Source: a virus (taxonomy: Duplodnaviria; Caudoviricetes). From it: a stretch of 64,000 nucleotides of DNA. The stretch covers positions 1 to 64,000 of IMG/VR virus record IMGVR_UViG_3300037478_000223; one strand, given 5' to 3'. Under the pieces are notes generated by a model that searched no databases, had not been told where the DNA came from, and saw only the letters and a list, made by a program, of their open reading frames with translations. This document shows, piece after piece, positions 8,011 to 55,913 of the stretch. The position numbers and the translations under genes were made by a program. Position 1 is the stretch's first letter. Each line of letters starts with the position of its first letter.

Positions 8011-8771
8011 CAGCCCTACAGCGCCTTCGGATCGCGAAGGTGCACCAGGACATGCGCGCCACGCAACGGGCCCAGGAAGCGGCTCAGAACGCGTCTGCGC
8101 CCGTCGTTGACGGCAAGCCGTGCGACACGTGCCCACCCGATGACGCGGACACGCCAGTCAGCTTGCAATCCCCGGCCGCGACCGTCGTGCCTGACGAACC
8201 GATCACGGCATCCGCTACCGCCGTTCGGGACGCGATCGTGTGGCCAGCCGACCACTTCGAGAAGTGGCGCAGCGCCACGTACGAGCCCCTGACCGTGCAT
8301 CCAGACGGGCAGATCACCGGACACCTCGCCGGGGACGGCTGTTTCCAGAACGGGGACGCGTCGGTGTGCGTGAAGTACAAGCGCGACGTTGACCCGACCT
8401 TGGCGCGGTTCAACACGTGGACCACGACCCTGGACGACGGGAACGTGATCCGCACTGGCGCGCTCACGGCCGGTGGCCCTCACGCGCCGGTCGTGGCAGC
8501 GACGAAACAGGGATGGAAGGATGCTGATATCCGCCGGTTCCATGAGGACACGTCAACCGTGTTCGCTCGTGTCGTCGCGTGGGAAGACGAGAAGGGGCGT
8601 CTTGCGGTTGCTGGCAGCATCATCCCGGAACTCGATCCCATGTTCGTCCGGCAAGTCGCTGGCGCTCCCGTGTCGATCGAAAAGATGCCCATGCATGAAA
8701 CTGGGTGGCGTAACACCCTGGTCGGCGCGCACATGGTTGTCACTCCGGCGCTGCCCGTGGTGACGGGGTGA
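8007..8771 (+). CDS. capsid maturation protease (cluster-B-like)
   Basis: PLTVHPDGQITGHLA...TGALTAGGPHA...ARVVAWED.KG.LAVAG motifs; position after portal. Confidence 0.7.
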   Translation: MTALQRLRIAKVHQDMRATQRAQEAAQNASAPVVDGKPCDTCPPDDADTPVSLQSPAATVVPDEPITASATAVRDAIVWPADHFEKWRSATYEPLTVHPDGQITGHLAGDGCFQNGDASVCVKYKRDVDPTLARFNTWTTTLDDGNVIRTGALTAGGPHAPVVAATKQGWKDADIRRFHEDTSTVFARVVAWEDEKGRLAVAGSIIPELDPMFVRQVAGAPVSIEKMPMHETGWRNTLVGAHMVVTPALPVVTG

Positions 8772-9812: not shown

Positions 9813-10023
9813 GGTTCCCCGGTCCTCCTGATGTTCAGGGTGAAGATGAGTCTTAACCTGACTCTACGGAGTTCTTCGCGTACCTCCATGCGGAAACAGA
9901 TGCAGGGCCGACAGACACACGATGCCCGGTCATGCGTCGCCGGATCGTTCTCCACCCAGAAGCGTTCAGTCATGCCGCCGTTGTTCCCCCTCGAACCACG
10001 CCCGTTGCCCCTGGCGCCGCATG

Positions 10024-10071
10024 TGCCGCGCCATCTGCCGCGCCATCTGATGCGCCATCTGATGCGCCAGG
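10024..10071. repeat. four 12-bp tandem repeats (core GCGCCATC)
   Basis: TGCCGCGCCATC x2, TGATGCGCCATC, TGATGCGCCAGG. Confidence 0.9.
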
Positions 10072-10340: not shown

Positions 10341-12533
10341 CTACCGGCCACGTGCCCGATTCTGCGCGTCAACCACATCGGCGCGCTTGACGCCCTTGGT
10401 CGGTGCGACGTCACTACTGATCCGCACCGAACCCACCTTCACCCCGGCCTCACGGAACAACTGGCCCACGTCCCGCGCGCCACACTCACCCCACGAGCCT
10501 GGGTCATGCGCTCGCAGCAGCGAAGCCAGCTCGCCCAGCCCGGCAGACGGGCGAACCACAGTCCCGTCCAGCGGCCACACGTCCACCACCGCGTCCAGGA
10601 ACACACCAGACGTCCCGTCATCGTCGTCCGCCGGGACATCTCCGGCCGCCATCCCGGACAGCGTGCCAGCCTCACGCCGCATGGCCTCGATTTCCTTCAC
10701 CATCGCGTGCACGCTCGGCAAGTCCAGGTAGGACAGCTTCGTCTTGACCATCGAACCACCAGCGATCCCGATGAACGCGACACCCGGCGTGTCGATGTCC
10801 ACCGCACGGTAGCCCCGGCCGTGAGCATCGGACCCGAGCGCGATATTCGCGTCAGCGATGCTGTTCTGCGCGTGCCCGACGCGGTGCTTGCACCGGTCCA
10901 GGATCCGCGCCGGAACAGTGCCTTCCTTCGCGCCCTGGAACACGAGCCGGACCGTGATTCCGACCGAGCGAGCCGTCTGCACGACGTCCAACAAGCTGTC
11001 TTCGGCCTCGTTCGCGATCGGGGACAGGAACACACGCGGGACCTCGTCCAGCAGCACGAACACCGGCCGCATGTCCTGGCGATCCGCCAACGCGTCGGTC
11101 AGCTTCGAGTCCGGGCATTCCTCGAACGGAAGCGTCTCCAACACCTTGTTCCGCCGTGCGACCTCGGACCGGAGCCACTTCAACGTCCCCATGAACGCCT
11201 CCAGGTCCGCCGCGTCGCACCCGTTGCGCAAGGTGTGCGCGATCGGCGCGAACGCCTTGTAGTCCAGCCCACCCTTGAAGTTGTGGATGGCCAAGAGCGT
11301 TCGCGGGTCCATCGCGGCACCCAGGATCAGCAGCCGCGCGGTAGCCGACTTCCCGGAACCGACGTCGCCAGCAATCCCGCCGTTCGTCTCGAACAACGGC
11401 ACGATGACATCCCGACCCCGCGCGTCCACGCCGACCGGAACACCATCGAAGTACGAGCGCGAGCGCACCTGAGCCCACTTCCACGCCGGAGACGGCATGC
11501 GGGACAGCAGCCCGTCAGCAACGAACAGCTCGAACGCACCCGGCGACACGTCCGGCAACGGCTCCACCACCAGGCACTCAGCAGGCTTGCCCATCGCGGA
11601 CGCGAACCGGCCGTGACGCTTGATCAACTCAGCCGTCTCCAGTCCAGGAGCCATCCTCACCGTGAGCAACACGCCACCCTGCACGCGCTCACCAGACATC
11701 ACGCGCGACTTGGCACCGTGCAGGGCACCGAACCCGGACATGGCCAACGCGTTCTCCACGGTGGTGACCAACGCCTGATCCTCGTGAGACGACGGAGCCA
11801 GTTCCTTGGGATCCTTCGACCTGAACAGGTGAAACTTCCCCTGCACCGGATCCCCCTCCGGCATCTGCGCAGTCACGACCACCGGCCGCACCGACTCCAC
11901 AGCACCGGGACCGTCCGGCACGGGCGCTCGAAGATCTTCCGGCACCTCGGCACGTAACGGCCACGTGTTACGGCGCTCGCGGACGCCCGCGACGATGAAC
12001 ACGGTGACGGTTCCTGCGATCACGGCTGCCGGGACGGTCCCCCACTTGCCGTGTTCGGACCACATCCACGCCGCGAAGAACGGGGAGGCGACCACAGCCA
12101 GGCGCAGCAGCTTCCCGCGTCCCTTCCCGGCCGCGACCCAGTTCTTGGCTCGTACGGCGCTGACCTTCACCCCGAGGGCGAAGTACAGCGGCGCGCGCAC
12201 GATGTGGAATGCGGCGATACGGCCTGTGTATGCGGCGCGTGCCTTGAAGCCGCCACGGACACGCGGGATCGGGACCGGGCGCACGACGGGCGCGGGCTGC
12301 GGCGCGACAACTGCCCCGGCGGGAACCGTCTGCGCTGTGGCCGGTTCGACGACGGGCCCGTTGTCCGGCTCCGCGTCGCCGCTCGCTGTGTCGTTGCTGT
12401 CGAAGGTCTCTTCGATCCGGTCAAGCGAATCATCGGCTTCGAGCATGTCCAAGAGCCGTTCGTTCACCTCGTCAGCTTCGTAGCCGCTGAGCCGTTCGTG
12501 GTCGCCGTCGTCGTAGTGTGCATTGTCGGTCAT
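10341..12533 (-). CDS. traB: FtsK/SpoIIIE-family DNA translocase, actinomycete plasmid TraB-like
   Basis: N-terminal hydrophobic segments; Walker A GDVGSGKS; Walker B VFVLLDE; ARSVGI..RL..Q motif; C-terminal possible wHTH region; start placed at ATG after GGAAGG RBS. Confidence 0.8.
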   Translation of the reverse strand: MTDNAHYDDGDHERLSGYEADEVNERLLDMLEADDSLDRIEETFDSNDTASGDAEPDNGPVVEPATAQTVPAGAVVAPQPAPVVRPVPIPRVRGGFKARAAYTGRIAAFHIVRAPLYFALGVKVSAVRAKNWVAAGKGRGKLLRLAVVASPFFAAWMWSEHGKWGTVPAAVIAGTVTVFIVAGVRERRNTWPLRAEVPEDLRAPVPDGPGAVESVRPVVVTAQMPEGDPVQGKFHLFRSKDPKELAPSSHEDQALVTTVENALAMSGFGALHGAKSRVMSGERVQGGVLLTVRMAPGLETAELIKRHGRFASAMGKPAECLVVEPLPDVSPGAFELFVADGLLSRMPSPAWKWAQVRSRSYFDGVPVGVDARGRDVIVPLFETNGGIAGDVGSGKSATARLLILGAAMDPRTLLAIHNFKGGLDYKAFAPIAHTLRNGCDAADLEAFMGTLKWLRSEVARRNKVLETLPFEECPDSKLTDALADRQDMRPVFVLLDEVPRVFLSPIANEAEDSLLDVVQTARSVGITVRLVFQGAKEGTVPARILDRCKHRVGHAQNSIADANIALGSDAHGRGYRAVDIDTPGVAFIGIAGGSMVKTKLSYLDLPSVHAMVKEIEAMRREAGTLSGMAAGDVPADDDDGTSGVFLDAVVDVWPLDGTVVRPSAGLGELASLLRAHDPGSWGECGARDVGQLFREAGVKVGSVRISSDVAPTKGVKRADVVDAQNRARGR

Positions 12534-12630
12534 GGCGGGGGTTCCTTCCGGTGGGGGATGTGCGTCGGTCCCGCCGCGTGAGTGGTACGGCGGGACCGAC
12601 TGGAGGGGCAACAGGGGGTAGGCGCGCGTG

Positions 12631-47922: not shown

Positions 47923-49050
47923 TTAACCGGCCGTGACCTGCCGCAACAGATCCATCGGGGATGCCTCGATCGCCGGTCCCTCGGACGTGGCAGCACCCTG
48001 AGCCGCTTCTCGTTCCAGGCGCTCCATCTCTGACGTCAGGATCGCCTTACGCCGGTCCATCGGGCGCATCGACGCGCCGCCGTCTCGCGCACGGACGGCC
48101 TGAGCCTGCATCTTGGCGTAGTTCTTCCGCAGCGAAGCGGCCCCGAGGATCACCCCGGACCAGAACTGATCCGCACGCGCCCAGTCGATCGCAGCGCGAA
48201 CCTTCTCGGGGCTACGCCCGTCGATGTCCACGAGCCTGCGCATCGTGTCGAACGCGTTCTTGCTCGCCTTCGGGCGCTCGCCGGTGCACTGCTGCACGGA
48301 CTCGGCCAGGTACTCCAGGAGTTCGAGGATGTCCGGCCGCGCGTCCGCTACGCCCTTCCACGCGGCCTGCTTCGGCTTGGAAGCGCCCGGGGCGTCATGG
48401 CCGGGTGCGGGGACGTCCTGGACGTGCTGGGGCGCCTCTGCGTGGTTGTGGCCGTCAGCGCGAGAGCGTCCGCACCGGACGCACCCGGGGGCGTCTTCGT
48501 CGGCGTCTTCGTCGATGGTGGGTTGCGTCGGCCCTGCCGCGTCAGCGGCCGGGGGGAGATCCGCGTCAGCGGTTCGAGGGGTGTCGTTCTTCCACTGGCT
48601 CTCGTTCAACTGGCTCTCGTTCTTTCCCTCCCCACTTACTGGGGAGGCCCCCTCCCCACTTACTGGGGAGGCCCCCTCCCCACTTACTGGGGAGGCTGCC
48701 GGGTCCGGTGCGAGGGGGATGACTTCGACCGTGTAGCTCGTTGAGGTCTGCATCCCGTTGTCGCGGAATCGCAGTTCACGGGTCAGGGCTCCGGCCGTGA
48801 CCAGTTCGGCAAGCCACTTGTCGATCGACGTCAACGAGACGCCCGTTTCTCCCAGGGTGCGGCCGGGCATCCTCTCGGCCAGGGTCTTGCGCTTGGGCCA
48901 CGCTTCGTCGTCCGTGTTCGCGTAGCGGGCCAGGAGTGCGTACAGGCGCATGGCTCCGTTGGAGATGTTCGGGTCCATGATGATCCACTCGGGGATCTGC
49001 GCGAATCGGACTCGTGCCCGGACTCCAACGCGTTCGTGGCTGTCGGCCAT
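47923..49050 (-). CDS. HTH replication initiator (lambda O/DnaD-like architecture)
   Basis: FAQIPEWI..D..IS.GA.RLYALL.RYA...AWP.R.TLA N-terminal wHTH; C-terminal AIDWARADQFW..VI.....LRK.Y. Confidence 0.8.
   Translation of the reverse strand: MADSHERVGVRARVRFAQIPEWIIMDPNISNGAMRLYALLARYANTDDEAWPKRKTLAERMPGRTLGETGVSLTSIDKWLAELVTAGALTRELRFRDNGMQTSTSYTVEVIPLAPDPAASPVSGEGASPVSGEGASPVSGEGKNESQLNESQWKNDTPRTADADLPPAADAAGPTQPTIDEDADEDAPGCVRCGRSRADGHNHAEAPQHVQDVPAPGHDAPGASKPKQAAWKGVADARPDILELLEYLAESVQQCTGERPKASKNAFDTMRRLVDIDGRSPEKVRAAIDWARADQFWSGVILGAASLRKNYAKMQAQAVRARDGGASMRPMDRRKAILTSEMERLEREAAQGAATSEGPAIEASPMDLLRQVTAG
48626..48697. repeat. three 24-bp iterons, each containing CCTCCCCA-CTTAC-TGGGGAGG palindrome (candidate origin)
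   Basis: CCCTCCCCACTTACTGGGGAGGC(C/T) x3 inside initiator linker. Confidence 0.85.
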
Positions 49051-49247
49051 GTTCCACCTCTCTGCGTCGAGAGTGGTAGCAGCAACCCAGCGTGAGCATG
49101 TAGACTTCTCACGTTCATCAGGTTTGGAGTGCTCTACCACTCGAATCTAGGCCGGACCCCGTAGCGGGGGTCCGGCCTGAACTTTTTCCTGACGGTCAGC
49201 GTACATGCCGCAGCAGGGTTCGTCGCGCGACGCGTGGAGTGTGTCAG

Positions 49248-50245: not shown

Positions 50246-51632
50246 CATCCGGGACAGTCGGGAACACGACGAACAGGAGAAACACATGACCCGTCACACG
50301 GCACAGGACATGGCCGACGCCGCGCGCGACGCTCTCAACGAAGCCATCGCGAACACGGTGAGCACCATGCGCCGGTACGCCGACGAGATCGAACGCGACT
50401 GCGCCCGAACCAGCATTCCCGCCAACCGTGCCTCTGCGGCGCTCGCTGGCATCGGGCACATGATGACCAACATCGACATGCGCGGCATTGCCTACTGGGC
50501 TGCCTGCGAGGCCAGTGACACAGCCGAGGCCGACGCCGCCAAGACCGGGAAGGGCGACGCCTGATGGGTTACACCTACGAGACACGCGACGCCGTCGCCA
50601 CCATGGTCCGCGCGGCGGTCCCCCACGATGGTCACTACGACATCGAAGCCATCACGGCCTACCTCTGGATGAAGACGGATGTGAACTCAGGGTTCATGGA
50701 CGTCACCGTGGGTGAGTTCTGGGATGTCGTGGACAGCAACCGTATCGACCTGCCGCAGCTTCGATCCACGGCACATCTCGTCGCCGCTATCGTCTTCCAG
50801 AAGAACGCATCGATCCTGTCCGACGTCTACGAGAAGCCGGAGGGCATGACCGCACCGGTGTACCGCGTCGACGTGGAGCACGAGAACGAGAACCGGCAGT
50901 GGCACATCAAGTTCATCGACGTTCAGCGCAACTCGCCCGTGGTGAAGATCTTCGAGATCCTATCTGTGGGCTCCGAGCCGCCGTACGACGAAGAAGAGGT
51001 CATGACGACCGATGACGCGACACAGGCACTCGCCAAGCTCGCTGAGTTGCTGTCGTGACTCGCGCATGAACCGAACCAGCGCGTGAGGCCGCGCACCTGC
51101 AATTTGCAGGTGCGCGGCCTCACGTGCATCCAACGAAGGAAGGAACGGCAACCATGCAACACGAACACCGCACCGAGGCGATGGATGAACTTGCAGCCGC
51201 CGTCGCGTGCATCCGTCGCGCTGGCGTGCACCTGGTCCAGTCCGGCGACATCGACACCGGCCGCGACGATGTTGCAACCCGGTCCATGTCAGGCGTCATC
51301 ACGGCATCCGAGAGGTGGTGCGTGGAAGCGCTGGTGGCGATCAACGCTCGCATGCCCGAGCGCGTGCCTGCATGACATTGAGTGCATGCAGGCACGCGCA
51401 CGCCACCGGATGCAGGTAACCGGGGTGCATGCACCTCGGGATACATAAGGGGACCCTGGCCACCCGCCAGGGTCCCCTTCCACTCACTCACACTCACACC
51501 CGAAGGAACGAAGGGCGTGCACGGCCAAGACTAGTGCACCAGAGTCGGTGAACGGGATGCACGTCACGAGCCCTTGCAGGCACCCGGTTGCATGCAATCG
51601 GGTGCCTGCAACGCTGCACCTGCAAGAAGAGA

Positions 51633-51673
51633 GCAACACGGGGGTTGCATGCGTTACACACGTGCGGTACTGT
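51633..51673 (+). promoter_or_regulatory. operator-promoter unit
   Basis: GCAAC-ACGGGG-GTTGC; TTGCAT-N17-TACTGT. Confidence 0.85.
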
Positions 51674-51718
51674 GCATGCATCGGGAACATCAACCGCACT
51701 CACGGAAGGAACCACGCC

Positions 51719-52861
51719 ATGCACACCGAGAACCCCCGCATCATCAAGATCATCGTCGCCGTCATCGTCGTCGCCGTCATCGCCGTGGCGATCGTGGCCA
51801 ACGGAGCCGCCTACCTCGGCGGCACCGCCTTCGTCCGCGACGTCATGGGCGAGAGCCAGACCACCGCCTACGTGTTCGGCGGCATCCTTGAAATGACCCT
51901 GGCCGTGCTATCCCTCACGGTCCTTGCCCGCTCGTACATGCTCCAGCCCACCGCAGGCGTACGCGCCGCGCTCTGGGCCGCTGCCGTGGCGTCAGCCGCG
52001 TTCGGCGCGATCCACGAGATCGTTGCTTACGCCACCGGTGAGATGACGCTCTACCAGGCGATCCCCGCCGCCGCATGGCGCGTCGGCGCCGTCGCCGCGT
52101 CCGTCGCGCTCTGGGAACTGGTGATCAAGCTGGTGTGCGGCCCCCGTGCCCGGGAAGCTCGTGACGCCGAGAACCAGCACAAGCTCATGTACCGCTACTT
52201 GAAGGCCGTTCAGTGGGTCGGTCTGACCCAGGGCACCCGCTTTGCATCCCTTGCACGCATGCTGGAACGGCGTGCACGCATGCAGACCGCCAAGCACGTC
52301 ACCCCCGAGCAGCGGACCGCGATCCTGGAGAAGTTCCACGAGTCGCAGGAAGCCAGCGCGGTCATCTCCGTCGCGATGGCGTCCCTGGCTCAGACGACGG
52401 ACGACGCGTTGAGGGACCTGGGTGACGTGTCCGCCCCGCACCTGTCCCAGCCGATCACCCGCGCAGCGCTCGGGAGCATGCACCCTGCAAGCTCGGACGC
52501 CATGCACGTGCAGACGGTGCAGGCCGTACAGGAAGTGCAGACGGTGCAGGACGTGCAGGACGTTCCGCAGGTGCAGGAGATTTCCCCGGTGCAGGAAGCC
52601 GAGACGTACACACGCACCGCCGCCGCCACGGTGGCCGACCGGTCCCGCGCGATCCGCGCTGACCTCGCCGCCGCATCCAAGCCAGCGACGTCCACGCGCA
52701 ACAACGCCTCGCGCCGGAAGGAAGCAATCGCGCTCATCCGTGAGCACTGGTCAAGCCGCGATGAGGTCACGATCCCCCAGGCGCACAGCATGCTCATGGC
52801 CGCCGGGTTCGACCACCACGAGCGCTCCACGGGCAACTGGCTCGCCGCTGCATTCTCCTGA
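51719..52861 (+). CDS. SpdB/DUF2637-like membrane protein with VQ-repeat linker and C-terminal HTH-like domain
   Basis: About 4 N-terminal TM helices, helical middle, (T/D/E)VQ repeats, RRKEAIALIREHW...TIPQAH..L...G tail. Confidence 0.6.
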   Translation: MHTENPRIIKIIVAVIVVAVIAVAIVANGAAYLGGTAFVRDVMGESQTTAYVFGGILEMTLAVLSLTVLARSYMLQPTAGVRAALWAAAVASAAFGAIHEIVAYATGEMTLYQAIPAAAWRVGAVAASVALWELVIKLVCGPRAREARDAENQHKLMYRYLKAVQWVGLTQGTRFASLARMLERRARMQTAKHVTPEQRTAILEKFHESQEASAVISVAMASLAQTTDDALRDLGDVSAPHLSQPITRAALGSMHPASSDAMHVQTVQAVQEVQTVQDVQDVPQVQEISPVQEAETYTRTAAATVADRSRAIRADLAAASKPATSTRNNASRRKEAIALIREHWSSRDEVTIPQAHSMLMAAGFDHHERSTGNWLAAAFS

Positions 52862-52957
52862 CAGATGCACCATGCAAACCGTGCGTGCATGCCCCGCACC
52901 CTGCAACATGCGGGGCATGCACACCCACGACACACCCCACCAGGAAGGAACCATGCA

Positions 52958-53236
52958 ATGAACACCACCCCCAGCCAAGATGCAAGCAACGAGCCTGCAC
53001 GCAAGGTACGCACGTGCTCCATGTGCCCGAACACGTTCGACGTGCACCCCAACAACGGCAAGACACGCGACACGTGCTCGAACGCTTGCAGGCAAGCCAA
53101 GTACCGCGCCAGCAAGGCACTGCCCAAGTTCCGGCGCGCGGGAGCACCCCGCCGCAACATCCCCACGGCGGCAGAAGCCGAAGCGCGATCCCTCACCGAA
53201 CTGTCCAAGTCCATCAGATCCGGAACCAGCGAATGA
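52958..53236 (+). CDS. Zn-finger protein (CSMC...TCSNACR)
   Basis: Cys motif, RBS. Confidence 0.6.
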   Translation: MNTTPSQDASNEPARKVRTCSMCPNTFDVHPNNGKTRDTCSNACRQAKYRASKALPKFRRAGAPRRNIPTAAEAEARSLTELSKSIRSGTSE

Positions 53237-54412
53237 ACGTGTTCGAGGTCGCCGCGATCCTCGCCGTCTGCGCTCTGGCGTGGCTGGCGCTTGGCCGGTT
53301 CCGCCGAGGCTTCGTCAGGTGGGTTGTCCTGGCCGTCGCTGTCCTCCTGATGGTCCGTTCACTGACCGGATGACCAGCCTGTGACCGAGAAAGCCGCCCC
53401 CCTCCAAACAGCCAGTTCCAGCCCGGAACCAGGCGTCTGGAGGGGGGTCTGTCATGCCGGTCACAACCACCTCATGTAGCCTCGCAACGGCTACATAGCA
53501 ACGATTCCGCCCGTAACCCAGGCTGGTCACACACGCCGGTCACGCCCGGTCACGTGACCGGCATGTGACCGCCGGTAACCGCACCTGTGACCGCCCACGG
53601 TTACACGCTCCGCAAGCACTCACGACGCCCCGTAGACGGGCAAGGAAGGGGCCACGTGGCCAACTACACCATCGCCACCACCTGGGAGGCTCTGGGAGGC
53701 TCTGACGACATCCTGACGGGCAACGATCTGGGCCACCTGATCGACGAGTCAACAGAGTTCTTCACCCGAGGTGTGTCCTCCGTCGCCTCCGTCTGGGTGA
53801 CCATGGACCCTCCCGGCACCCCGACCACATGGTCAGAGCCCCGGCACCCCGACCACACGCCCCTACTCGCGGACGGCTACTACCTGTTGGAGATCCGCGA
53901 AGAGGGGGCCCCCACCAACCGTTCCAAGGGACGCGCCCGCCGGTTCGTGCACGTACAGGGACACGTCAACCCGCGTGCAGTGCGCGATGCAGAAATCGCC
54001 ATCGCCGCCGTGCAGGCTGCACAGCGCGAGTTGCGGCATGCACTGCACGAGTGGGAACAGGTCCGCACCGCGATACCGCAGGACATGCAAGATCGCTTGC
54101 AGGAACGCATCCGGCAGTAGCACGACATGCAACCATGCAACGGGGCCCGGCCTGCATCATGCAGGCCGGGCCCCGTTTGCATCGACGCTAGCCATGCAAG
54201 CTGGCACGAGAAAACTTACAAAGCAGGATGACACTGCAAGTCTGCACCCGAAAACTTACATTCGCCACGCGCGTCACCGCCGACCACGTGGCCGCGCCCC
54301 GACGTCTCCCGGATGAAACGCCGGGACGCACGACCGCTGCAAATGCCCCCTTGCATGCGGCCACCGCCACCGTACCGCGCCACCGTTGCAGGCATGCAGG
54401 CGACACACTAAT

Positions 54413-54453
54413 GAAACGTTAGGGTTGCGCATTGGAGCGACGGTGCGTAACGT
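54413..54453 (+). promoter_or_regulatory. operator-promoter unit (1 mismatch)
   Basis: GAAAC-GTTAGG-GTTGC; TTGCGC-N17-TAACGT. Confidence 0.85.
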
Positions 54454-55913
54454 GGGGCACGTCGGGAATAACCACCACACGAAAGGACACCGACCGTGGA
54501 CCTACTGATCCTCGCCGTGGCCATCACATGCCACGCGATCATCACGCGAGACACCATCAGACGAGGTCAGATCCCGCTGTGGCTGATCATCGCATTCAAC
54601 GTGACGTTGATCGGCGGCAAGATCGCTGTCATCACCTTCCCTCACACCATCCAGTCAGCATCGCTTGTCATGCTCCTGTGTCTCATCACGTTCACGGGCT
54701 GGCGCATCCTCCAGGAAAACATCAGGCAGTGGTTCCTCAACTGCCTCACAGCATCGTTCGTGCTGCTCGCCATCAACGGCATCGCCTACTGAGCCACCCT
54801 GTGCCGCCCCATGCCACACGAACGCCACACGCTGGCGCTCGCGGGACGTGGAGTGTCACAGGGCGTGACACTGGAGAGGGGAACACCATGCACGGCAAGA
54901 AGACCCGAGGCGAGAAGCAGTGCGCCAACTGCGGTAGCTGGTTCTGGTCCATGTTCGGCGGCAAGCTCTGCGCCGCCTGCAAGTGACCATCGCGTCGTGG
55001 GGGGGCCGGGGGGGCCGCCCCCCGCCCGCAAACCACACACCGCAGGCCACACGACGCGATCAACCCAGACACGGAAGGAACCAACCACACCATGAGCCAC
55101 ACCACACACGCCAACGTCAAGGCGGGCGAAACCGTCACCGTGAACATCGACGCCGACCCCGGACACATGAAGCCGTTCTCGGTTACGGGCGAGACGTACC
55201 AGCTCCCGGGACACGGGAGCGACCTGTTCGTTGGCGGATGGGGACTGTCCCGACGAGACGTCACCCTCACTGACCACCAGCCCAAACGGGCCACCAGAGA
55301 GTGGCGAAACGGCACGGCCGGAACGGCGACAGTGCTCTACGGAGGCGACTTGGACCGTGCCGCTACGCGCACCGTCTTCCGCACCGCTGGCGTAGTCGCC
55401 CCGGGCGAGACAACGCGCCCGTGGGTGGACGAACTCGGGAACCTACTCACCGACGACGAGGTAACGGCATTCGTCCCCGCCGACGCTGAGGAACTGCTCC
55501 GAAAGGTCGGCCTGCTGACCCACCAACTGGACAAGTTGCAGCGAGCGCACGACATCATGGCCGATCAGCGAGACTCATACCTCCAGATCATGGCGCGCGT
55601 GGCCGTCGAGAGGAACACGGCTCGGGGCGACGTGGAACGTCTCACGGTTGGCCTGTCCGAGGCGAACGACGCACGGATGACCATGCTTGCCGAGTTGGAG
55701 CGGATCCGCGCCGCCCACACGTCGCCGAAGGTGAAGCGGGAGGAACTGGCCGATGCGTGGGAGGCGGGTTACGAGGCGCGAGACGAGTGGACTCCGGTCG
55801 GACCGACAGGCATCCCCCATGACCCGCCGCTGAACCCGCACGACGAGACCAGGCCGACGCCGTAGGCCATCCTCGCGTGGCGCTCGCTGCTGTGCGCGGT
55901 GAGCGCCACGCGC

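What the first reader, a model, noticed from the sequence alone, without database searches (positions are those of the whole stretch)
51098..54398. TGCA-saturated DNA tract surrounding and inside an SpdB-like membrane/HTH gene
Seen: TGCA is enriched more than 10-fold locally, by hand count (about 27 in 625 bp at 51098-51723, about 10 in 52481-52600, about 10 in 52861-53100, about 21 in 53947-54398). It appears in intergenic DNA, in hairpins and in several ORFs, where it forces MH/MQ/VQ/LQ/LH codons (e.g. VQTVQAVQEVQTVQDVQ). It stops abruptly at about 54.4 kb. A 4-bp palindrome that is the core of common restriction sites (PstI, NsiI, ApaLI) is normally avoided by phages. Known: pIJ101 SpdA2 binds a palindrome within its own coding region and aids plasmid stability. 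Inference: a distributed binding array or centromere for the membrane-anchored HTH protein (51719-52861), tethering the genome for segregation or spread. Alternatively it could be a restriction/modification decoy.
Basis: partly seen in the sequence, partly recalled or inferred. Interest (0 to 1): 0.8.

Follow-up and report, generated by a model that had tools for sequence, protein, structure and literature searches.

The report
TGCA docking array around SpdB-like gene
An uncultured actinobacterial phage has packed 73 copies of the four-letter palindrome TGCA into 3.4 kb around and inside the gene for a membrane protein with a DNA-binding tail; distant relatives do the same and related genes in conjugative elements carry a different word, so this is most likely the protein's own docking array, holding the element's DNA at the membrane.

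Summary
TGCA occurs 73 times in 51050-54450, against 7.7 expected from the rest of the 73-kb phage record. No other 4-mer is so concentrated. 38 sites are intergenic.

The island surrounds a 380-aa protein (51719-52861). It has four membrane helices, a disordered linker and a C-terminal three-helix HTH-like domain.

Nine related loci from phages of about 52-56 kb share only 35-65% protein identity. All show the same TGCA saturation (60-80 per kb) just upstream of the homologous gene and inside its linker-coding part. The sites use two reading frames and rare codons, far beyond what the amino acids require. In two complete relatives this is the only TGCA cluster in the genome.

More distant homologues sit next to TraB in integrative conjugative elements. 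They lack TGCA but carry about 20-27 copies of CGGACA/TGTCCG at the same place in the gene, beside a separate clt-like array shared by the related TraB elements.

Best reading (about 0.5): a multivalent docking array for the protein's own tail, giving membrane tethering and autoregulation within a TraB/Spd-type DNA-spread module. Binding is untested.

The scan reached the same reading earlier on another genome (e1-3427509). I rate it a new variant of a known kind.

The parts
51079..51127 (.). Near-perfect 24-bp-arm palindrome with TGCA in both arms next to its centre, just past the stop of gene 50564-51058. It marks the left edge of the TGCA island.
   Evidence: I1, 96% complementary
51154..51375 (+). 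Small gene (73 aa) of unknown function carrying 6 TGCA in all three frames. A homologue in L008 is also TGCA-rich.
   Evidence: GC3 frame plot. Synonymous resampling gives 6 observed against a mean of 2.7, reached in 3 of 3000. Alignment with L008.
51357..51402 (.). Hairpin/palindrome with GCCTGCATG arms that overlaps the stop of the small gene.
   Evidence: I6
51518..51680 (.). Upstream TGCA array (12 sites in 163 bp). It includes the 19-bp-arm palindrome 51574-51611 and the GCAAC-N6-GTTGC operator/promoter unit at about 51633-51680.
51719..52861 (+). Gene for the 380-aa membrane/HTH protein. It has TM helices at about 6-169, cytoplasmic helices to 233, a disordered linker at 235-289, and a C-terminal three-helix domain at 329-380. 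The start codon overlaps a TGCA (ATGCAC, His2 invariant in the family).
52479..52593 (+). In-gene TGCA array (10 sites) in the linker-coding part, at the VQ/MH/PA codon pairs.
52849..52999 (.). Downstream TGCA array (9 sites). It spans the stop codon, the hairpin at 52885-52922 and the start of the next gene.
   Evidence: I9
52955..53236 (+). Small Cys-rich (CxxC...CxxxC) protein of 93 aa, conserved downstream in the close relatives L008 and L009.
   Evidence: (only weak PHROG hits to zinc-finger parts of HNH/primase proteins)
53948..54398 (.). Second TGCA block (21 sites). It covers the last 60 codons of gene 53587-54120, then intergenic DNA with the perfect 19-bp-arm palindrome 54139-54177. 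It ends at the next operator/promoter unit, at about 54402-54440.
   Evidence: I2. For the last 60 codons, 9 observed against a mean of 3.3 and a maximum of 7 in 3000. The same block is present in L009.
10341..12611 (-). TraB-like FtsK/SpoIIIE translocase (756 aa), the presumed partner of the module, 40 kb from the island.
   Evidence: 42% identical to the TraB-like gene of a related phage and 31% to the AICE TraB that sits next to a family member. Weak EccC/FtsK ATPase hit.
10014..10070 (.). Separate clt-like repeat, GATGGCGC 3-4 times at a 12-bp period, about 270 bp past the traB stop.

Best explanation
The TGCA island is a cis-acting, multivalent docking array for the C-terminal HTH tail of the membrane protein encoded in its midst. 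The protein probably oligomerises in the membrane. It holds several small three-helix DNA-binding domains on long flexible linkers. Each domain reads only a 4-bp word, so one site is weak. Dozens of sites, often in 6-bp register, give high-avidity and locus-specific capture of the phage genome at the membrane. Arrays cover the gene's own promoter region and start codon, so the same binding would also autoregulate the gene and, in this phage, its neighbours. The protein belongs with the phage's TraB-like dsDNA translocase to a TraB/Spd-type module inherited from actinomycete conjugative elements. The tether therefore most likely presents the genome for membrane-associated handling, meaning intramycelial spread or stable positioning. 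Shown here: the array, its conservation, its selection at the DNA level, the change of word in distant homologues, the protein architecture, and the linkage with TraB.
For: (1) Exclusive association. In 10 loci TGCA is 14-24-fold enriched in the 300 bp upstream plus the linker-coding part of the homologous gene. In two complete DTR phage genomes the only TGCA clusters lie at this gene. (2) Selection acts on the DNA. In-gene sites use two frames about equally (xTG-CAx 128, xxT-GCA 156, TGC-Axx 2). They rely on rare NNT and GCA codons. Observed counts are 24-34 against synonymous-resampling means of 3-7 and maxima of 9-15 in 2000. In this window 38 of 73 sites are non-coding. Positions turn over between relatives while density is kept. 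(3) The word changes with the gene. AICE homologues (profile E 1e-21 to 1e-29) lack TGCA. Instead they hold 27 and 19 copies of CGGACA/TGTCCG, in both orientations, in the same part of the gene. These counts exceed every one of 500 resamples in an unbiased max-6-mer test. A further homologue has CGAGCG. (4) The tail is a plausible reader. It is a confident three-helix domain (pLDDT about 90). Within the C-terminal domain the invariant columns across the TGCA groups are few (Leu, Ala, Gly, Arg, Asn); they include an Arg and an Asn of the last helix, although overall identity is only about 27%. The homologous AICE tail (hhalign 85%, E 6e-6) keeps the Arg but has Arg in place of the Asn. (5) The array is not the TraB site. 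Related TraB elements with and without this gene family share a separate CGCTAC/GTAGCG array downstream of the tra operon. This window has its own clt-like 8-mer repeat next to traB. In pSVH1 the published TRS lies directly after traB. (6) There are precedents for sites inside or upstream of the cognate gene: SpdA2/sps (PMC4170104) and StbA/stbS arrays of (T/C)TGCATCAT (bioRxiv 10.1101/2022.04.29.490116). A Streptomyces nucleoid-associated protein, Gbn, is reported to recognise a consensus built on the 4-bp palindrome GATC (PMC9239103 abstract).
Against: There is no binding data. Fold matches of the tail are weak and generic (Z at most 5.9; Fur/Zur, ArgR, StbA, PadR, FF domains). The DNA-binding role is therefore inferred from shape and context only. 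In this window the in-gene array is weak and largely explained by VQ codons (11 observed against a mean of 5.3; not significant in the max-6-mer test). All TGCA phages whose whole genomes could be searched also carry TraB, so TraB is not excluded as reader in the phages. The word-versus-tail covariation rests on few lineages. One homologue, in a relaxase-type plasmid, has only a marginal array. In this phage the TGCA blocks also spread over neighbouring genes and terminators, which a simple autoregulatory site does not require.
Confidence: 0.5

Rival explanations
1. [quoted passage not shown] On this reading they sit in the Spd-like gene only for linkage.
For: Every TGCA phage that could be checked has a TraB-like gene. 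Known clt loci are arrays of short repeats in tra/spd modules (PMC4447253, PMC3583192). No clt-like repeat was seen within 400 bp downstream of traB in two 52-kb relatives. The AICE linker word CCGGACA resembles the pJV1 clt repeat CCGCACA[C/G][C/G] as quoted in PMC3583192.
Against: Known clt loci are 3-9 copies of 5-9-bp direct repeats adjacent to traB. In pSVH1 they lie at 8147-8270, right after traB. Here the word is a 4-bp palindrome in 50-70 copies, 8-40 kb from traB. This window has a separate 8-mer repeat beside traB. Related TraB elements share a CGCTAC array whether or not they carry this gene family, whereas the linker arrays occur only with the gene. TGCA over the start codon and promoter of the Spd-like gene has no role in a clt.
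Confidence: 0.12
2. The arrays are regulatory sites for another trans-acting factor, either a phage regulator or a host nucleoid-associated protein that reads TGCA. That factor would set the timing or insulation of this early-operon segment.
For: The blocks lie between terminator-like palindromes and the next operator/promoter unit, ending exactly at promoters 51633 and 54413 (note e1-5912139). In the 52-kb relatives a conserved palindrome, CCACATGCATGTGG, sits between -35-like and -10-like hexamers. A Streptomyces protein reading a 4-bp palindrome genome-wide is known (Gbn, PMC9239103).
Against: The only gene shared by all neighbourhoods is the membrane/HTH gene itself. A host factor would not explain why the word changes in AICE homologues at the same place in the gene. 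No candidate regulator travels with the arrays.
Confidence: 0.15
3. The cluster of a 4-bp palindrome is a methylation or restriction-related device. It would be a patch of methyltransferase targets used as a switch, as with GATC clusters at E. coli oriC or the phage P1 pac site, or a decoy for a TGCA-specific nuclease.
For: Clusters of a 4-bp palindrome are classically methylation-controlled sites (own knowledge). Two relatives carry N6_N4 methyltransferase genes a few kb away.
Against: This phage has no PF01555, PF02086 or PF00145 methyltransferase. The AICE homologues use a non-palindromic 6-mer in both orientations. Seventy cleavable sites would be a liability, not a decoy.
Confidence: 0.06
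4. The island has no function of its own. It would be a by-product of low-complexity linker evolution, slippage or palindrome-driven rearrangement, or of a replication origin.
For: Part of the in-gene array is a degenerate 9/27-bp tandem repeat, and linker length is hypervariable.
Against: Half of the sites are non-coding and not tandemly repeated. The same word is kept across proteins only 35% identical while individual positions turn over. Rare codons are used to write it. Origin-type iterons lie elsewhere, inside the initiator genes.
Confidence: 0.07

Closest known systems
SpdA2 and its sps palindromes on Streptomyces plasmid pIJ101 (PMC4170104)
   Same: A DNA-binding protein of a tra/spd module has its binding sites inside or just upstream of its own gene, and the sites dictate an amino-acid motif (SRDD/E). 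It affects plasmid stability.
   Different: sps is a 12-bp palindrome in 1-3 copies and SpdA2 is a small soluble protein. Here a 4-bp word occurs in 50-70 copies and the protein is membrane-anchored. No sequence relation was tested or claimed.
StbA / stbS of plasmid R388 (bioRxiv 10.1101/2022.04.29.490116; PMC3098194)
   Same: A wingless tri-helical HTH binds cooperatively to arrays of short repeats upstream of its own gene. It acts as both repressor and centromere-binding protein and balances stability against conjugation. The repeat (T/C)TGCATCAT contains TGCA. The StbA domain appears among the weak fold matches (7pc1, Z 5.5).
   Different: StbA reads a 9-bp direct repeat at an 11-bp period, ten copies, and is soluble. 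The fold match is at noise level, so homology is not claimed.
SpdB2 spread protein of pSVH1 (PMC4447253)
   Same: [quoted passage not shown] It works with the TraB translocase in intramycelial spreading, and homologues have been noted in actinophages. Distant homologues of the window protein occupy the gene position next to traB in AICEs.
   Different: pSVH1 SpdB2 has an N-terminal coiled coil before the TM segment, reportedly binds DNA non-specifically, carries no k-mer array in its gene, and shows no detectable sequence similarity.
TraB clt / TRS repeats (pSVH1 GACCCGGA; pJV1, pWTY27; PMC4447253, PMC3583192)
   Same: Arrays of short repeats act as the cis site of a membrane DNA-translocation module in actinomycete mobile elements.
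   Different: clt loci have few copies of 5-9-bp direct repeats adjacent to traB. The TGCA island is a palindromic 4-mer in far higher number, tied to the Spd-like gene.
Gbn (SCO1839), the GATC-binding nucleoid-associated protein of Streptomyces (PMC9239103)
   Same: An actinobacterial DNA-binding protein reported to recognise a consensus built on a 4-bp palindrome.
   Different: Gbn is a chromosomal, genome-wide protein with no membrane anchor and no dedicated array.
Phage phi29 p16.7 (own knowledge, not checked here)
   Same: A phage membrane protein with a C-terminal DNA-binding domain that organises the phage genome at the membrane.
   Different: It binds DNA without sequence specificity and has no cognate array. 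It comes from a Bacillus phage and is unrelated in sequence.

Membership tests
SpdB2-type spread proteins of actinomycete conjugative elements | Integral membrane protein with about four transmembrane helices plus a cytoplasmic DNA-binding part | tested here: met
   The AlphaFold model has helices 6-42, 47-73, 79-105 and 111-169, then the linker and a three-helix C-terminal domain.
SpdB2-type spread proteins of actinomycete conjugative elements | Encoded in a tra/spd operon beside the FtsK-like translocase TraB | tested here: met
   Profile-detected homologues P0041 and P0047 lie directly downstream of a 775-aa TraB in GntR-TraB-...-PrimPol-Xis-Int modules. In the phages TraB is in the same genome but 8-40 kb away.
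SpdB2-type spread proteins of actinomycete conjugative elements | Sequence similarity to the experimentally studied SpdB2 (pSVH1) or SpdB (pIJ101) | tested here: inconclusive
   hhalign of the family profile against each single sequence gave probabilities of 1.2% and 0.2%. Spd proteins are known to be very diverse, and single-sequence comparison is insensitive. ESM Atlas neighbours include HTH_SpdB_C/SpdB_N and 'conjugal transfer protein' clusters at 0.89-0.92, which are leads only.
SpdB2-type spread proteins of actinomycete conjugative elements | Oligomerisation, dsDNA binding, interaction with TraB, requirement for spreading | not testable with these tools
   These are biochemical and genetic properties (PMC4447253).
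Pfam DUF2637 (PF10935) | Score above the curated cut-off of 22.8 bits | tested here: inconclusive
   The window protein scores 19.4 bits or 22.0 bits in the six-frame search. Only 2 of 26 family members match weakly. The distant family member P0058 passes at 30.4 bits. There is no hhalign match to an annotated DUF2637 protein of a Streptomyces plasmid.
clt (TraB recognition locus) | A few direct repeats of 5-9 bp adjacent to or overlapping the 3' end of traB | tested here: not met
   The TGCA word is a 4-bp palindrome in 73 copies, 40 kb from traB. A separate 8-mer repeat lies 270 bp past traB. For reference, the pSVH1 TRS is at 8147-8270, after traB.
Centromere-like/operator repeat arrays bound by their own gene product (StbA/stbS, omega heptads, SpdA2/sps type) | Array of a short repeated word at the promoter of, or inside, the gene for a DNA-binding protein, conserved with that gene | tested here: met
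Centromere-like/operator repeat arrays bound by their own gene product (StbA/stbS, omega heptads, SpdA2/sps type) | Specific binding of the protein to the array, with a stability or repression phenotype | not testable with these tools
   This needs EMSA, ChIP and genetics.
Phage replication origin | Iterons for the initiator, usually within or beside the initiator gene | tested here: not met
   Iteron-like 8-mer arrays lie inside the initiator genes: CCTCCCCA six times at about 48627 in this window, and GCATCACC seven times in L015. They are not in the TGCA island.

The most novel reading that the evidence does not exclude
There may be a general, undescribed design in TraB/Spd-type modules of actinomycete phages and integrative elements. 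The disordered linker of a membrane-anchored DNA-binding protein would be encoded by DNA that is itself that protein's binding array. The protein sequence is then subordinate to a DNA code, and the word co-evolves with the tail (TGCA, CGGACA, CGAGCG and others). The nascent membrane protein would capture its own gene locus in cis. That would tether the element's genome to the membrane translocon, and tailed phages carrying it could move as naked dsDNA between hyphal compartments as well as by virions.
Probability: 0.3. Interest if true: 0.85.

Novelty: new variant of a known kind. Interest (0 to 1): 0.7.

Why it matters
If the tail reads the array, this is an unusually clear case of overlapping codes. 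A 4-bp DNA word is written at up to 80 copies per kb through promoters, terminator stems, a start codon and a protein linker, using rare codons. It is maintained across proteins that are only 35% identical.

It would give the poorly understood Spd 'spread' proteins of actinomycete mobile elements a specific cis site. It would also make directly testable the long-standing suggestion that SpdB2-like proteins help phage DNA to spread in mycelium (PMC4447253).

Finally, it would add a membrane-anchored, avidity-based tethering system to the known partition and transfer devices. The motif/tail pairs would supply a small set of orthogonal DNA-anchoring parts.

Tried and rejected
- **No cultured relatives.** DNA and tblastn searches of the island and the protein against cultured phages and plasmids found nothing. 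A pattern scan of 185,579 species genomes found no relative. The family is known only from metagenomes, IMG/VR and a few assemblies.
- **Fold searches.** A search with the whole model gave only unrelated membrane proteins. The tail alone gave only weak generic HTH and three-helix matches. The ArgR (TGCAT half-sites, own knowledge) and StbA leads are therefore not evidence.
- **General purine-pyrimidine alternation (Z-DNA).** Rejected, because other alternating 4-mers (CGCG, ACGT, GTAC) are not enriched.
- **Extended consensus around TGCA.** Rejected. Flank preferences are explained by neighbouring sites at 4- and 6-bp spacing. GTTGCA operator half-sites occur at the chance rate (9 of 73, counted).
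- **Helical (10.5-bp) phasing.** Not seen. The non-coding arrays show a 6-bp register.
- **Simple tandem repeat.** Only the VQ part qualifies.
- **Replication origin.** Iterons lie elsewhere.
- **Phage-encoded methylation.** No methyltransferase was found.
- **Missing resources.** pJV1 and GenBank-numbered pSVH1 records are not held. The pJV1 clt paper is not held. PF27079 (HTH_SpdB_C) is not in the local Pfam.
- **NCBIfam and PHROGs.** Neither names the protein.
- **Not used.** No complex prediction or read mapping was run, because neither would test DNA binding.


Full report
**1. The observation**

The window is the first 64 kb of a 73,146-bp IMG/VR virus record that CheckV rates as complete.

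The interval 51050-54450 holds 73 TGCA. The rest of the genome predicts 7.7, so the enrichment is 9.4-fold. No other 4-mer exceeds 2.4-fold, and those that come closest are words overlapping TGCA. Outside the island TGCA is slightly depleted, with 158 observed against 228 expected from a Markov model.

A scan of all 136 strand-merged 4-mers for their densest 500-bp window singles out TGCA. It reaches 22 against a mean of 1.58, Poisson 5e-18, about ten orders of magnitude beyond any independent word.

The island is really two blocks, 51098-53090 and 53948-54398, with none between them.

**2. Anatomy in this window**

GC3 frame analysis gives a rightward operon. Its genes are 50564-51058, 51154-51375 (73 aa), 51719-52861 (380 aa), 52955-53236 (a 93-aa Cys-rich protein), a tiny membrane ORF, 53587-54120 and 54496-54792. 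A YqaJ-type exonuclease and an ERF annealing protein follow.

38 of the 73 TGCA lie in four intergenic regions, at 32-65 per kb. Many sit in long, nearly perfect palindromes placed like terminators after genes:
- 51079-51127
- 51357-51402
- 51574-51611
- 52885-52922
- 54139-54177

The coding sites occur in all frames. They exceed synonymous-codon expectation in each affected gene: 6 against 2.7, 16 against 8.8, 9 against 3.3. Flanking control genes have 0-1 sites. Only the VQ stretch is a degenerate tandem repeat. The word is thus superimposed on promoters, terminator stems, a start codon (ATGCAC) and coding DNA alike.

**3. The protein**

AlphaFold models built on family alignments show the following:
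- four long transmembrane helices (6-169)
- two cytoplasmic helices
- a disordered linker (235-289)
- a helix at 290-319
- a confident C-terminal three-helix bundle (pLDDT about 90)

Fold and sequence searches of the tail give only weak, generic helix-turn-helix-type matches: Fur/Zur, ArgR N-domain, StbA, PadR and FF domains, with Z at most 5.9. A DNA-binding role is plausible but not demonstrated.

Pfam DUF2637 scores just under its cut-off. PHROGs and NCBIfam are silent.

**4. Relatives carry the same island**

A search of 5.8 billion proteins found 36 homologues. All come from metagenomes or IMG/VR. None occurs in cultured phages, plasmids or species genomes.

I fetched nine loci. Two are close relatives (60-65% identity) and seven come from phages of about 52-56 kb with 68-71% G+C (about 35% identity). 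In every one:
- TGCA reaches 50-73 per kb in the 300 bp upstream of the gene.
- In the seven more distant loci it reaches 63-82 per kb in the linker-coding part, and 21-34 per kb there in the two close relatives.
- The rest of the locus has 3-5 per kb in the seven longer loci.
- TGCA is the top enriched 4-mer in all but the truncated L009.

In two complete genomes with terminal repeats, TGCA clusters lie only at and beside this gene, apart from one 4-site group about 4 kb away in G001.

Within the genes TGCA sits in two frames about equally: xTG-CAx gives V/L/M+Q/H, and xxT-GCA gives any residue plus Ala. It avoids the Cys frame (128, 156 and 2 sites). It depends on NNT and GCA codons that are rare in these genomes.

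Resampling synonymous codons gives 3-7 sites on average and never more than 15, against 24-34 observed. The linker's amino-acid sequence and length are hypervariable. Aligned non-coding sites turn over between relatives while density is kept. Selection therefore acts on the DNA word and its density.

In all 26 aligned proteins the start codon overlaps TGCA, with His2 invariant. The upstream regions of the 52-kb phages share one layout:
- a terminator hairpin with TGCA in both arms
- the array
- a conserved palindrome, CCACATGCATGTGG, between -35-like and -10-like hexamers
- a leader hairpin

Non-coding arrays favour spacings of 6, 12, 18 and 24 bp and show no 10.5-bp phasing.

**5. Distant homologues carry a different word**

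A profile search of 1.84 billion representatives found about 70 more distant relatives.

Two of them, L020 and L021 (L021 lies in an actinobacterial chromosome), sit directly downstream of a 775-aa TraB. The surrounding module has the classical AICE layout: GntR regulator, TraB, this gene, Prim-Pol, excisionase, integrase. That TraB is 31% identical to the window's TraB-like gene at 10341-12611. The related phages carry the same translocase.

These AICE genes have no TGCA excess. At the same relative position they hold 27 and 19 copies of CGGACA/TGTCCG in both orientations, encoding (L/V/M)SG in one orientation and (A/P)D(S/N/T) in the other. I compared the most frequent 6-mer of the real sequence with the most frequent 6-mer of each synonymous resample, which avoids picking a winner after the fact. 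The observed counts exceed all 500 resamples: 27 against a maximum of 16, and 19 against 11.

A third homologue has CGAGCG, 20 against a maximum of 13. A fourth, in a relaxase-type plasmid, is marginal. By this stricter test the in-gene array of the present window is not significant on its own. Its strength lies in the non-coding arrays.

The AICE tail is homologous to the phage tail (hhalign 85%, E 6e-6). It keeps the conserved Arg of the last helix but replaces the conserved Asn by Arg. This is the kind of change expected if that helix reads the word, though two lineages are thin evidence.

**6. Who reads the array?**

The main rival is TraB, whose winged helix binds 8-bp repeats at clt (PMC4447253). 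Three results argue against it.

- In pSVH1 the published repeat GACCCGGA lies at 8147-8270, immediately after traB. It is not in spdB2, which has no array.
- Two cultured plasmids have TraB 44-49% identical to the AICE TraB. They lack a member of this gene family, and no array was found in the DUF2637 genes they carry. They do carry a CGCTAC/GTAGCG array just downstream of traB. The two AICEs carry the same array after their tra-spd operon, in addition to the CGGACA linker array. The CGCTAC array thus follows TraB, and the linker array follows the Spd-like gene.
- This window has its own clt-like repeat, GATGGCGC three to four times at a 12-bp period, 270 bp past traB.

Against this, no such repeat was seen next to traB in two 52-kb relatives. 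TraB therefore remains possible there.

Replication origin is unlikely, because iteron arrays lie inside the initiator genes. Phage-encoded methylation is unlikely, because no methyltransferase of three families is present in this phage and the AICE word is not a palindrome.

**7. Mechanism proposed**

A membrane protein, probably oligomeric, carries several small DNA-binding tails on flexible linkers. Each tail reads four base pairs, so specificity comes from avidity for a locus that offers dozens of sites.

Arrays over the promoter and start codon imply autoregulation. The extra blocks in this phage and its two close relatives would bring neighbouring transcription units under the same control or enlarge the tether.

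The gene family travels with TraB, and its distant members occupy the spd position. The likely purpose is therefore to hold the element's DNA at the membrane translocation apparatus, for spread between hyphal compartments or for stable positioning.

That the nascent protein captures its own gene in cis is an attractive inference only.

**8. Comparison with what is known**

The nearest precedents are these:
- SpdA2/sps on pIJ101, a binding palindrome inside its own gene that imposes an amino-acid motif (PMC4170104).
- StbA/stbS on R388, a wingless HTH that binds arrays of (T/C)TGCATCAT upstream of its own gene and serves as both repressor and centromere protein (bioRxiv 10.1101/2022.04.29.490116).
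- SpdB2 of pSVH1, a four-helix membrane protein that binds dsDNA and partners TraB. [quoted passage not shown]
- Gbn, a Streptomyces protein reading GATC (PMC9239103).

The present system differs in several ways. The word is very short, the copy number and density are high, and the array is embedded through coding and regulatory DNA. There is also no detectable sequence similarity to the studied SpdB proteins.

The papers I searched and read in the held library did not describe such arrays. The scan itself found the same phenomenon earlier in another genome and read it the same way (e1-3427509). I had reached my reading before seeing that note, but it is not independent experimental support.

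**9. Verdict**

Binding and biological role remain untested.
- Novelty: a new variant of a known kind (cis-acting repeat arrays bound by their own gene product).
- Interest: 0.7.

Noticed in passing
window 48553-48750 (inside the initiator gene 47923-49140, minus strand): The 8-mer CCTCCCCA occurs six times within 200 bp and encodes SPVSGEGA repeats in the HTH_36/DnaD-like replication initiator. These are probably the origin iterons. A related phage has GCATCACC seven times inside its initiator gene (L015, about 1234).
   Followed up: partly
window 10014-10070: GATGGCGC is repeated 3-4 times at a 12-bp period, about 270 bp past the stop of the TraB-like gene. It is a candidate clt. No equivalent was seen within 400 bp of traB in L015 or L016.
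   Followed up: partly
L020 8669-8840; L021 9529-9675; L033 6045-6120; L034 6149-6225: A shared CGCTAC/GTAGCG array (5-9 copies, both orientations) lies downstream of traB or the tra-spd operon in two AICEs and two cultured plasmids with related TraB proteins. It is a candidate clt of that TraB clade.
   Followed up: partly
window 54211-54222 and 54250-54261: GAAAACTTACA is directly repeated twice, 39 bp apart, inside the second TGCA block. Its function is unknown.
   Followed up: no
L010 9925-9940 and the same place in L011, L013-L017: The conserved 14-bp palindrome CCACATGCATGTGG (or a near variant) lies between -35-like (T/C)TGCAC and -10-like TANNNT hexamers upstream of the homologous gene. 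It looks like a separate dimer operator.
   Followed up: no
L034 (Pseudonocardia alni plasmid pPaSha2, CP052773.1): A 42-kb plasmid of a cultured strain carries TraB, a DUF2637 gene, an integrase fragment and a holin. It may be a phage-plasmid and a tractable relative for experiments.
   Followed up: no
L021 14442-14700: GGCGGGGA occurs nine times within 200 bp near the end of a 606-aa gene, just upstream of the integrase gene. It is a further unexplained array in the AICE.
   Followed up: no
window 52955-53236: A small Cys-rich protein (CxxC...CxxxC followed by a basic stretch) lies directly downstream of the membrane/HTH gene and is conserved in the two close relatives. SpdA2 of pIJ101 is also described as having a zinc-finger motif, but no comparison was possible.
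   Followed up: no
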